Origin: the human T2T-CHM13v2.0 reference genome, Homo sapiens
Assembly: GCF_009914755.1 (NCBI RefSeq)
Contig: NC_060929.1
Strand: one strand, 5' to 3'
DNA length: 64,000 nucleotides
The translations under genes and the position numbers were made by a program. Shown here one piece after another: positions 53,066 through 58,342 of this stretch. The notes beneath the pieces are model-generated. The model was given only the letters and a program-made list of their open reading frames with translations. It did no database searches and was not told where the DNA came from. Every line of letters starts with the position of its first letter. The stretch's first letter is position 1.

Positions 53066-53257
53066 GCTGCACGGTTAGGTATTTTACCTGTGGGTCGAGG
53101 AAAGACCATGTCCTCTCAAGGTCGAGGAAGAGGCCGAGGGCGTGGAGGAAGAGGAAGGGGCTCACTAAATCACATGGTGGTGGACCATCGTCCCAAAGCA
53201 CTAACAGTTGGAGGATTCATTGAGGAAGAAAAAGAAGACTTGCTTCAGCATTTCTCA
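53066..53257 (+). CDS. RBM27: RBM27 exon 19 (192 nt), RG box and N-terminal part of a second RRM
   Basis: attcag|GCT GCA CGG ... TTC TCA|gtaagt; GRGRGRGRGGRGRG then VDHRPKALTVGGFIEEEKEDLLQHFS. Confidence 0.95.
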
Positions 53258-56721: not shown

Positions 56722-56839
56722 GTATGTTATTATGTTACTTTATATATCAAATATTTAAGTTAAACATAATTGAAATATATAAATATAATTTTATATATTT
56801 TAAAGATCAAAATCAGCGAATCCAGAAAGAACTTTTTAA

Positions 56840-57149
56840 TTTTAATTTTTTTTTATTTTTTATTTTTTTGGAGACGGAGTCTTGCTCTGTCGCCCAGGCT
56901 GGAGTGCAGTGGTGTGATCTCGACTCCCTTGCAATCTCCGCCTCCTAGGTTCAAGTGATTCACCTACCTCAGTCCCTCCAGTAGTTGGGATTACAGGCGT
57001 ACACCTCCTGGCTAATTTTTTTGTGTTTTTTAGTAGAGACGGGTTTCACCATGTTGGCCAGCCTGGTCTCAAACTCCTGACCTCAGGTGATCCACTGCCT
57101 TAGCCTCCCAAAGTGCTAGGATTATAGGCATGAGCCACTGCGCCCGGCC
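56840..57149 (-). mobile_element. Alu (S type)
   Basis: TSD cagaaagaacttttta. Confidence 0.9.
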
Positions 57150-57206
57150 CAGAAAGAACTTTTTAAAAAATAGAAAAATCTTTATTTACCTATCTTTATT
57201 TCACAG

Positions 57207-57284
57207 AAATCTTAAGATTTTTAATATCTTAATGAAGTTAATGTTAAGTATTTATAATTAAAGTTTAATTCAGAAGCTGAAAAT
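57207..57284 (+). pseudogene. Candidate fossil (pseudo)exon for the missing middle of RRM2
   Basis: Intact-looking acceptor (tttatttacctatctttatttcacag|), 26 codons K S * D F * Y L N E V N V K Y L * L K F N S E A E N, no GT donor; resembles the RBM26-type RRM2 middle exon as I recall it. Confidence 0.6.
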
Positions 57285-58342
57285 TTTAACTCAGAGCCTT
57301 GCCAAGGGCACAGATGGGACAAAAACTAAAGTACTTCATCCCTGTTGAAGGGAGGTTCGGCTAGATACAACAGGAAAAGTTATTTTCTCTAAATATTTGG
57401 AATATATAGACTGTACTTTGATATTTTTCAAGTAGTGTGGCTCATTTAACTGTAAGAATTTTGAATTTTTCCTTCTTTTCAAGAAGTCTAGAGTTAGGTT
57501 TTAGGATTGATCAATTCAGAAATTCAGCTGCTCAGATTAATATATTTCTCTTCTTCTATCCTACCATGTTGCCTTTTATTAGGCTTTTTTCCTCTTGCCT
57601 TGACCTCCCAAAATGTTGGGATTACAGGCATGAGCCATTGCACCTGGCTAGTTTTTTTTTCTTTTTTTAAATTCCTGTTTTTACTGTTACTTCTTGATTT
57701 CTAAATTGTAAGCATTATATATTGACTTCCCATTAATCTTTCTGCTTCCCACCTCTCCAGTTTTTTTTTGACCTTGTCGTGTTTTCTTTTATTTTTTTGT
57801 TACGGATTTATACCTTAAAAAAATAAATTATTCTACTGTCATTTCAGTGGGTGTCTGGGGAAGGGTATGAAATTGCATACGACAGATGGTCAGTTCCCCA
57901 TCTTTAGCCAGAAGACCCTTTGAGTCTTGAGAAAGTAAGAGGTTTATCTCTAAAGTACTGTTTAGAACCTGTGCTCCCACAATATTTATATAATTCGTTA
58001 TAATTTTTATGTTCTTACTGGCAAAAACCTCTAATGTCTCACTCCTGTCATTCCTGGAACTTCATATGAGGCAACAGAATACCTCTGCTGTAATTACCAA
58101 AGACTTCGCACATAGTTAGCTTTTCCCCACAGCCTCTCAAGACAGGGATTTTCCCCCATCTTCCAAGTATCTGAAAAATATATTTGAGAATTTTACTGTA
58201 CATGGAAATGATACTTTATAGTTAGGCAGATAGTTTTCTTTTGTGCTTTCCAGAACAAAAATTAACCTTTTCTGTGTATTTAACATTTGGAGAAAGTTTT
58301 TTAGATAGTGCTTCATTGATTGCCCTTCATCAGACCTTGTTA

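What the first reader, a model, noticed from the sequence alone, without database searches (positions are those of the whole stretch)
57181..57290. Candidate fossil exon: the lost middle exon of RBM27's second RRM lying decayed in intron 19
Seen in sequence: exon 19 ends in phase 0 halfway through an RRM (VDHRPKALTVGGFIEEEKEDLLQHFS, roughly beta1-alpha1). About 3.9 kb downstream there is a good 3' splice site (tttatttacctatctttatttcacag|). It is followed by 78 nt reading AAA TCT TAA GAT TTT TAA TAT CTT AAT GAA GTT AAT GTT AAG TAT TTA TAA TTA AAG TTT AAT TCA GAA GCT GAA AAT, then tttaac where a GT donor should be. This translates as K S * D F * Y L N E ... L K F N S E A E N. From memory, not verified here: the paralogue RBM26 continues its RRM2 with about 29 residues (QYGEIEDCQIDDSSLHAVITFKTRAEAEA) before AAVHGARFK, while human RBM27 jumps from HFS straight to TANQGPKFK. 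The relic matches at both ends. K-x-x-x-E-A-E-x sits at the correct distance from the exon end, and several 5' codons are one substitution from the expected K-F-G-D/E-I-E-D-L (TCT/TTT, TTT/ATT, TAA/GAA, TAT/GAT). Inference: RBM27 lost a phase-0/0 exon by donor inactivation, not deletion, which crippled RRM2 and left a molecular fossil. This would date and explain the divergence of RBM27 from RBM26, both PAXT/nuclear poly(A) RNA decay factors.
Basis: partly seen in the sequence, partly recalled or inferred. Interest (0 to 1): 0.85.

Follow-up and report, generated by a model that had tools for sequence, protein, structure and literature searches.

The report
Probable fossil of RBM27's lost exon
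Placental mammals, humans included, have lost a small exon that completes the second RNA-binding domain of RBM27, and a decayed 78-base stretch in the human intron is probably, though not certainly, its remnant.

Summary
The sequence is as described. The recalled premise is true. Human RBM27 goes from exon 19 (...LLQHFS) straight to exon 20 (TANQGPKFK...). Echidna, platypus, wombat, reptiles and birds carry 29 extra residues there (KFGDIEDLQEEDSPLSVVLTFKSRSEAEN). All 13 named placental species seen lack them. The paralogue RBM26 has an 87-nt phase 0/0 exon at the same place.

The segment forms beta2, beta3 and half of alpha2 of an RRM. Pfam detects this RRM in echidna and wombat but not in macaque.

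Is 57207-57284 the relic? Ordinary searches do not single it out. Codon-aware tests do:
- It has 11 of 26 identities. This is the best of 583,264 real-DNA positions apart from the true RBM26 exon.
- 17 of 2,000,000 peptide permutations match it.
- It is the best body match in intron 19 at two of three decay settings, and it sits on one of the 15 best acceptor positions of 12,952.
- The joint intron-wide chance is about 0.001 to 0.04.

Against: about 30-40% divergence, an acceptor better kept than neutral decay predicts, and no orthologous DNA to align.

Verdict: the exon loss is real and the relic is probable (about 0.7). "Donor inactivation" as the cause and "dates the RBM26/27 split" are not supported.

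The parts
53066..53257 (+). RBM27 exon 19. Its last 22 residues (KALTVGGFIEEEKEDLLQHFS) encode beta1 and alpha1 of the C-terminal RRM. It ends in phase 0 before gtaagt.
   Evidence: sequence and translation; the Pfam RRM match in echidna starts in the homologous residues; beta1 is 8-12 and alpha1 is 16-29 of the model.
57181..57206 (+). Acceptor-like 3' splice site tttatttacctatctttatttcacag. It is either the retained acceptor of the lost exon or a chance site.
   Evidence: YAG, 15/20 pyrimidines, no upstream AG; 25 of 12,952 sense positions in intron 19 are as good by this rule. PWM log-odds 10.29 bits (real sites 7.6-16.4); rank 15 of 12,952 sense positions; 373 of 583,001 null positions are as good.
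57207..57284 (+). Candidate relic of the 87-nt RRM2 exon. It has 26 codons in the frame set by the acceptor, 11 identical to the orthologue peptide, a net 3-codon deletion within EEDSPLSVV, and TAA stops at codons 3, 6 and 17. GC is 16.7%.
   Evidence: alignment; at least 23 of 78 nt differ. (11 identities; next best 10 at five of 583,264 positions). (17 of 2,000,000 permutations; maximum 9 in 10,367 windows with AT at least 80%). (15, 44 and 115 of 1,000,000 permutations). (joint test).
57285..57290 (+). Place where the donor should be. It reads tttaac, with no GT.
   Evidence: Real RBM27 donors all start with gt. This fits a dead exon but says nothing about which lesion came first.
56823..57166 (-). 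Context: an Alu insertion in minus orientation (about 56840-57149) with a 17-nt target-site duplication (56823-56839 and 57150-57166), about 40 nt upstream of the acceptor. It is later than any exon loss and is not part of the relic.
   Evidence: One search shows that 57150-57589 between the two Alu pieces is single-copy in this genome.

Best explanation
Window 57207-57284, with the acceptor at 57181-57206, is the decayed remnant (pseudoexon) of an ancestral 87-nt, phase 0/0 coding exon of RBM27. That exon encoded KFGDIEDLQEEDSPLSVVLTFKSRSEAEN, which forms the end of alpha1, beta2, beta3 and the first half of alpha2 of the C-terminal RRM.

Shown: the exon is retained in monotremes, a marsupial, reptiles and birds, and is absent from the mRNA-derived protein of every placental seen. 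The paralogue RBM26 keeps an exon with identical boundaries. Without it the C-terminal RRM is no longer recognisable.

Inferred: on the placental lineage, after the marsupial split, the exon stopped being spliced in. The DNA was not deleted. It drifted for more than about 100 million years (recalled date), acquiring three stops, a net 9-nt deletion, loss of the GT donor and about 30-40% substitutions, while the acceptor happens to survive. The first lesion is unknown. The exon may already have been an alternatively skipped cassette.
For: 1. Premise; echidna P0098, platypus P0122, wombat P0123, turtle, alligator, lizards and birds have 29 residues between ...QHFS and AANQG. In one search, 94 of 120 database proteins carry them, and 84 are identical in sequence. 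All 13 named placental species, plus human, lack them. No placental appears among the top 120 hits to the exon-containing echidna C-terminus.

2. Exon boundaries. Human RBM26 has ...HFA|87 nt|AAVHG with ag and gtaagt. The relic's first codon (K) directly follows AG, and its last (N) is the orthologue's last residue.

3. Identity. It has 11 of 26 identities allowing one in-frame gap. It is the only one of 583,264 real-DNA positions on both strands to reach 11, apart from the true RBM26 exon. Five positions reach 10. AT-richness is not the cause: the maximum is 9 in 10,367 windows with AT at least 80%.

4. Order-specific similarity at the site. 17 of 2,000,000 peptide permutations reach 11 identities. 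For the codon log-odds score, 15, 44 and 115 of 1,000,000 reach the observed value at d = 0.2, 0.3 and 0.4.

5. Rank within intron 19. It is first of 25,904 positions on both strands by body score at d = 0.2 and 0.3. That same position is the 15th best acceptor of 12,952 sense positions. It ranks first by the joint score at all three d.

6. Joint score against the null. It is first of 583,001 null positions at d = 0.2 and 0.3, with margins of 12 and 6.7 bits. A tail fit gives an intron-wide chance of 1.2e-3, 2.7e-3 and 3.8e-2.

7. Specificity. With the RBM26 peptide as query the site scores 5 identities, and 50,904 positions do as well. The relic agrees with the RBM27 orthologue alone at 7 residues and with RBM26 alone at 0.

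8. Positive control. The method recovers the real RBM26 exon at 42 bits.

9. Not a recognisable repeat. 57150-57589 is single-copy in this genome and holds no tandem repeat.
Against: 1. Standard tools do not find it. BLOSUM62 local alignment gives 27, against 26-28 at seven other places in the intron. A marginal nucleotide profile ranks it first only at d = 0.2, by 0.2 bits, and an Alu A-tail beats it at d = 0.3 and 0.4. A six-frame genome search with the echidna C-terminus finds only the live exons.

2. By body score alone at d = 0.4 it ranks 33rd (sense) and 70th (both strands) in the intron, and 2,433 of 583,001 null positions equal it. The joint intron-wide chance at that setting is only 0.04-0.08.

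3. The model log-odds of the body is small: 3.4-5.4 bits with the intron background and about 0 with a local 300-nt background. Simulated true relics without indels score 61, 44 and 27 bits at 20%, 30% and 40% divergence. A real relic must therefore be about 40% diverged, or an unlucky draw.

4. The acceptor (10.3 bits) is much better kept than simulated neutrally decayed acceptors, whose medians run from +4 to -3 bits. It is the acceptor that drives the joint significance. Likelihood ratios per intron came out at 7-60, 1-27 and 0.1-1.5 depending on settings.

5. The scoring scheme, gap penalties (not varied) and the three d values were my own choices. The null is 292 kb from two loci only.

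6. No orthologous genomic DNA, whole-genome alignment or RepeatMasker/Dfam call was available. An old diverged transposon fragment is not excluded.
Confidence: 0.7

Rival explanations
1. Chance resemblance. The ancestral exon was deleted or has decayed beyond recognition. 57207-57284 is ordinary AT-rich intron that happens to follow a chance polypyrimidine-AG site and to share 11 residues with the orthologue peptide.
For: Ordinary alignment methods give it no special rank. The body log-odds is only 0-5 bits. At d = 0.4 there are 2,433 equal or better body scores in 583,001 positions. The acceptor is better preserved than a 30-40% diverged body would predict. Likelihood ratios fall to about 1 at one setting.
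Against: It is the single best of 583,264 positions by identity. 17 of 2,000,000 composition-matched permutations reach it. The best body match in the intron falls exactly on one of 15 top acceptor positions of 12,952, on the sense strand and in phase. It matches RBM27-specific residues, not RBM26-specific ones, 7 to 0. The joint chance is 1e-3 to 4e-2.
Confidence: 0.26
2. The stretch belongs to something else, such as a fragment of an ancient, highly diverged transposon, or a cryptic or poison exon of independent origin. Its likeness to the RRM2 exon is incidental.
For: No RepeatMasker/Dfam library was available. The acceptor is strong enough to be functional. The neighbourhood is rich in Alu insertions.
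Against: 57150-57589 has no second copy in this genome at the search's sensitivity. There is no GT at the expected donor, and there are three in-frame stops. The incidental likeness would still need the coincidence quantified above.
Confidence: 0.04

Closest known systems
Human RBM26 middle RRM2 exon (G000 C13, minus strand; L011 7068-6982)
   Same: It has the same position in the gene, between the exon ending ...HF[S/A] and the exon starting A-A-[N/V]-[Q/H]-G. It has the same length (87 nt) and the same phase 0/0. It is 16 of 29 residues identical to the RBM27 orthologue peptide.
   Different: It is a live exon with ag and gtaagt and an open frame. The relic shares only 5 residues with it, and all of the relic's paralogue-specific matches are to RBM27.
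The live RBM27 exon of monotremes, marsupial, reptiles and birds (proteins P0098, P0122, P0123, P0015, P0104, P0035 and others)
   Same: It is the presumed orthologue. 11 of 26 aligned residues are identical, with boundaries coinciding at K1 and N29.
   Different: Only protein sequences were available, so no nucleotide or syntenic alignment was possible. The human stretch has stops at codons 3, 6 and 17, a net 3-codon deletion and no donor.
Pseudoexonization of TNNI3 exon 3 in shrews and moles (bioRxiv 10.1101/2023.05.19.541292; seen as search listing and abstract start only)
   Same: This is lineage-specific inactivation of a small coding exon whose remnant stays in the intron and removes a functional protein segment.
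   Different: That case is recent, recurrent and supported by multi-species DNA. Here the loss is single and old (placental stem or early placentals), and the remnant is judged from one genome.
Drd2 exon 6 skipping and Drd3 exon 6 deletion (PMC12198306; search listing and abstract start only)
   Same: Paralogues differ in whether a small cassette exon is included, skipped or lost.
   Different: In Drd3 the exon is deleted. Here the DNA appears to persist.

Membership tests
Relic (pseudo)exon of a lost coding exon | A live exon exists at this gene position in outgroup orthologues or paralogues | tested here: met
   29 residues lie between exons 19 and 20 in echidna, platypus, wombat, reptiles and birds. 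The RBM26 exon has the same boundaries and phase.
Relic (pseudo)exon of a lost coding exon | The exon is absent from the mature product in the lineage in question | tested here: met
   Human exon 19 joins exon 20 (annotation). 13 named placental species lack the segment. The placental/Boreoeutherian labels are from my own knowledge of the species names. No Afrotherian or Xenarthran name was seen.
Relic (pseudo)exon of a lost coding exon | Sense-strand similarity to the orthologous exon above chance, in the right intron | tested here: met
   It is best of 583,264 positions by identity. 17 of 2,000,000 permutations reach it. It ranks first in the intron by body score at d = 0.2 and 0.3 but 33rd/70th at d = 0.4. 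It is not distinguished by BLOSUM local alignment or a marginal profile. Met with moderate strength.
Relic (pseudo)exon of a lost coding exon | Remains of splice signals at the expected boundaries and phase | tested here: inconclusive
   A strong acceptor sits exactly at the first codon. No GT is present at the donor position. The acceptor is better kept than neutral decay predicts.
Relic (pseudo)exon of a lost coding exon | Syntenic nucleotide alignment to the live exon in genomes that keep it | not testable with these tools
   No vertebrate genome other than the window's own is held. Only proteins of the orthologues were obtainable.
Relic (pseudo)exon of a lost coding exon | Not part of a transposon or other repeat | tested here: inconclusive
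   It is single-copy at the sensitivity, with no tandem or dispersed repeat. No RepeatMasker/Dfam is available, so old diverged elements are not excluded.
Canonical RRM (RNA recognition motif) as the C-terminal domain of RBM27 | beta1-alpha1-beta2-beta3-alpha2-beta4 fold recognised by RRM profiles | tested here: not met
   For placental RBM27, macaque P0002 has no C-terminal RRM hit in Pfam. The AF2 single-sequence model shows only helix 16-29, pTM 0.19 (this is a weaker comparison than the aligned echidna run). For the exon-containing form the feature is met. Echidna and wombat hit Nup35_RRM_2 and RRM_Nup35 at 35-44 bits, above cut-off. The AF2 model has the full topology. Foldseek hits the RBM22 RRM, Nup35 and U1A.

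The most novel reading that the evidence does not exclude
The 87-nt exon was a regulated cassette in ancestral tetrapods that switched RBM27's second RRM on and off. Exon-less models are annotated from coelacanth and frog to birds. Placentals hard-wired the 'off' state in RBM27 while RBM26 kept the full domain, which divides labour between the two PAXT-associated paralogues. The unusually well-preserved acceptor at 57206/57207 survives because the spliceosome still recognises it, for example as a decoy or poison-exon site tuning RBM27 output.
Probability: 0.1. Interest if true: 0.65.

Novelty: new member of a known kind. Interest (0 to 1): 0.45.

Why it matters
RBM26 and RBM27 are treated as interchangeable paralogues in work on PAXT-mediated nuclear RNA decay (PMC7049725, passages read). 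RBM27 is also an autism candidate gene (PMC11556708, passages read).

This analysis shows that placental RBM27, unlike RBM26 and unlike RBM27 of other vertebrates, cannot build its C-terminal RRM. More than half of the Pfam-matched domain is missing: 29 of 52 residues. That is a concrete, testable structural difference between the paralogues. It also warns against transferring results between placental RBM27 and non-mammalian or invertebrate orthologues.

The probable relic would be a clean example of an exon lost by disuse rather than deletion. It would also allow the order of lesions to be read from other placental genomes. No paper in the searched library connects RBM27 with exon loss or a truncated RRM2:
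- 'RBM27' + 'exon loss' found 0 papers.
- 'RBM27' + 'RRM2' found 5 papers, none relevant by title.
- The six-term search listed none of its top 12 with RBM27.

About 1.7 million PubMed Central articles and most subscription journals are not covered by these searches.

Tried and rejected
1. BLOSUM62 local alignment of the 29-mer against six frames of intron 19 did not discriminate.

2. A marginal nucleotide profile with glocal alignment was confounded by composition, and an Alu A-tail near 65115 wins at d = 0.3 and 0.4.

3. A genome-wide six-frame search with the echidna C-terminus looked for an old retrocopy that might preserve the ancestral exon DNA, or for a better relic. It found only RBM27 exons 19-21 and the three RBM26 exons.

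4. A solved-structure search with exon 19 gave no match.

6. I asked for a larger real-DNA null.

7. The idea that exon 20 beyond the window was simply the 'missing' exon was rejected. Exon 20 starts TANQGPKFK.

8. Repeat or tandem-repeat origin found no support.

9. AT-richness as the explanation was rejected by AT-matched windows and by permutation.

10. I meant to vary the gap penalties but did not.

11. I did not use complex prediction, the search of protein representatives, the protein-atlas search or the RNA tools, because none bears on the question.

Full report
**Observation**

A polypyrimidine tract ends in cacag at 57206. It is followed by 78 nt that translate in the frame set by the AG as KS*DF*YLNEVNVKYL*LKFNSEAEN, and then by tttaac where a donor would be. 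Exon 19 (53066-53257) ends ...VDHRPKALTVGGFIEEEKEDLLQHFS|gtaagt in phase 0.

**Is an exon really missing?**

The annotated gene has 21 exons, and exons 20 and 21 lie beyond the window. My first suspicion was that exon 20 was simply the 'missing' one. The window's own genome is held, so I fetched the next 8 kb.
- Exon 20 (L002 2210-2320) is ag|TANQGPKFKDRRLQISWHKPKVPSISTETEEEEVKEE|gtaaat, and exon 21 follows. The recalled junction HFS|TANQG is therefore correct.
- The paralogue RBM26 on contig 13 has the homologous flanking exons (...LLPHFA|gt and ag|AAVHGARFK).

**Orthologues**

A search of the large protein database with exon 19 returned vertebrate RBM27 proteins.
- Echidna, turtle, alligator, duck and hummingbird have 29 residues, KFGDIEDLQEEDSPLSVVLTFKSRSEAEN, between ...QHFS and AANQG. 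Macaque, flying fox and ground squirrel do not.
- Of the 120 database proteins, 94 carry the segment, and 84 of those are identical in sequence. A further 16 lack it by pattern and 3 more by eye. One joins exon 19 to exon 21. Six end at or read on past exon 19.
- A second search with the echidna C-terminus added platypus and wombat, both with the segment. It showed no placental among its top 120.
- A third search with the exon-less macaque C-terminus added a gundi.
- In all, 13 named placental species plus human lack the segment. By my own knowledge of these names they are primates, rodents, bats and cetartiodactyls. No Afrotherian or Xenarthran name was seen.
- The loss therefore falls after the marsupial-placental split.

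29 non-mammalian entries lack the segment precisely: birds, king cobra, wall lizard, tuatara, coelacanth and a frog. So do 6 bird entries. Both forms are annotated within Anser cygnoides, Pelecanus crispus, Podarcis muralis and Rhynochetos jubatus. This may mean that the exon is a cassette exon outside mammals. Some models may instead be projections of mammalian proteins; that suspicion is recalled, not tested.

**What the exon encodes**

- Pfam finds an RRM (Nup35_RRM_2 and RRM_Nup35, 35-44 bits, above cut-off) at echidna 971-1022 and at the same place in wombat. It finds nothing there in macaque. The segment accounts for 29 of those 52 residues.
- An AlphaFold2 model of the echidna C-terminus (alignment of 8 sequences) shows beta1 8-12, alpha1 16-29, beta2 32-38, beta3 43-48, alpha2 51-61 and beta4 70-74, with pLDDT about 83 in the core.
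- That model matches solved RRMs: the RBM22 RRM, Nup35 and U1A.
- The exon is residues 28-56 of the model, which cover the end of alpha1, beta2, beta3 and half of alpha2.
- The exon-less macaque tail, folded as a single sequence and so not a like-for-like control, shows only the alpha1 helix.

**Is 57207-57284 the relic? Negative results first**

- BLOSUM62 local alignment of the 29-mer against the six frames of intron 19 (12,952 nt) gives 27 for the candidate and 26-28 at seven other places.
- A marginal nucleotide profile ranks it first only at an assumed divergence d = 0.2, by 0.2 bits. An Alu A-tail beats it at higher d.
- A genome-wide search with the echidna C-terminus finds only live exons and no retrocopy.

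**Codon-aware score**

I then scored each codon by log-odds: the orthologue residue, codon weights from RBM27's own 976 codons, neutral decay d, and the intron's base composition as background. Alignments were anchored at a start position and had to consume the whole peptide. Gap costs were fixed beforehand and never varied.
- The method finds the real RBM26 exon at 42 bits.
- At the candidate the score is 3.4, 5.4 and 4.0 bits at d = 0.2, 0.3 and 0.4. The alignment always ends at 57284.
- Permuting the peptide gives equal or better scores in 15, 44 and 115 of 1,000,000 trials.
- With a local 300-nt background the score is about 0.

**Null from real DNA**

The null used all the real DNA I held: the window, 8 kb downstream, 20 kb of RBM26 and 200 kb upstream. 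This is 583,001 positions on both strands.
- Body scores equal to or above the candidate occur at 8, 97 and 2,433 positions.
- Acceptor log-odds as high as the candidate's 10.29 bits occur at 373 positions. The acceptor matrix was built from the gene's 19 real acceptors.
- The sum is highest at the candidate for d = 0.2 and 0.3, with the next best 12 and 6.7 bits lower. At d = 0.4 it is second only to a genuine RBM27 acceptor.
- An exponential fit to the null tail gives a chance per sense strand of intron 19 of 1.2e-3, 2.7e-3 and 3.8e-2.

**Model-free count**

Using identical residues with one in-frame deletion of up to four codons:
- The candidate has 11 of 26 identities.
- Apart from offsets of the true RBM26 exon, no other of 583,264 positions reaches 11. 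Five reach 10 and 82 reach 9.
- Among 5,956 acceptor-like sites the next best is 9.
- AT-richness does not explain this. The relic is 83% AT, and 10,367 windows with AT at least 80% reach at most 9. 17 of 2,000,000 peptide permutations at the site reach 11.

**Rank and specificity within intron 19**

- The candidate is first of 25,904 positions by body score at d = 0.2 and 0.3 (33rd on the sense strand and 70th on both strands at d = 0.4).
- The same position is the 15th best acceptor of 12,952 sense positions.
- The likeness is specific to RBM27. With the RBM26 peptide the site scores 5, as do 50,904 other positions.
- The relic agrees with both paralogues at 4 residues, with the RBM27 orthologue alone at 7, and with RBM26 alone at 0.

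**Points against**

- Simulated true relics without indels score 61, 44 and 27 bits at 20%, 30% and 40% divergence. The observed body therefore implies about 40% divergence or a low draw.
- The minimum possible divergence is 23 of 78 nt.
- Simulated decayed acceptors have median log-odds from +4 to -3 bits. The observed 10.3 bits is unexpectedly good, and it is what carries the joint test.
- Likelihood ratios per intron ranged from 0.1 to 60 across settings.
- There is no orthologous DNA, no whole-genome alignment and no RepeatMasker. I can only say that 57150-57589 is single-copy here and lies between an Alu with a 17-nt target-site duplication and a second Alu piece.

**Judgement**

- The exon loss in placental RBM27 is established (about 0.97).
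- That 57207-57284 is its remnant is probable (about 0.7). The rival is chance.
- The cause of the loss cannot be read from one genome. The missing GT, the stops at codons 3, 6 and 17 and the net 9-nt deletion are unordered, and prior exon skipping is an alternative first step.
- The loss does not date the RBM26/RBM27 duplication. Proteins named RBM27 and 85-92% identical to human exon 19 occur across birds and reptiles, and similar ones in coelacanth and frog, while human RBM26 is about 60% identical.

**Literature**

- I read passages of PMC7049725 (RBM26/27 in PAXT), PMC11556708 (rbm-26 and the autism candidate RBM27) and PMC9320363. None discusses a truncated second RRM.
- Searches for RBM27 with 'exon loss' (0 papers), with 'RRM2' (5, none relevant by title), and with six evolutionary terms (none of the 12 listed holds RBM27) found no prior description.
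- Comparable cases, seen only as listings and abstract starts, are TNNI3 exon 3 pseudoexonization and Drd2/Drd3 exon 6.
- Supplements were not consulted.

Noticed in passing
Database proteins P0034, P0043, P0048, P0050, P0080, P0107, P0194-P0221 and P0231 (no window coordinates): Exon-less RBM27 models are annotated outside mammals: birds, king cobra, wall lizard, tuatara, coelacanth and a frog. Both forms occur within Anser cygnoides, Pelecanus crispus, Podarcis muralis and Rhynochetos jubatus. This is either a genuine cassette exon or projection of mammalian gene models.
   Followed up: partly
window 56823-57166: A minus-orientation Alu (about 56840-57149) has a 17-nt target-site duplication, CAGAAAGAACTTTTTAA, at 56823-56839 and 57150-57166. 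It was inserted about 40 nt upstream of the candidate acceptor.
   Followed up: yes
window 57590-57697: A partial Alu-like repeat is the only part of 57150-57750 with other copies in the genome: 51 matches elsewhere among the 40 candidates scored.
   Followed up: partly
L002 2210-2212 (window 66210-66212, outside the window): Human exon 20 begins with ACC (Thr), giving TANQG. Macaque and every other species seen have Ala (AANQG), or Pro/Ser variants in some ungulates.
   Followed up: no
Database protein P0004 (Camelus ferus model): This model joins exon 19 directly to exon 21 (...LLQHFS|ETETSDLF), so it also skips exon 20. It is probably an annotation artefact.
   Followed up: no
L002 about 1077-1163 (window about 65077-65163): The A-rich tail of an Alu gives the top score to an A-rich coding profile at d = 0.3 and 0.4. 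This is a reminder that composition can mimic similarity to this Glu/Lys/Asp-rich exon.
   Followed up: yes
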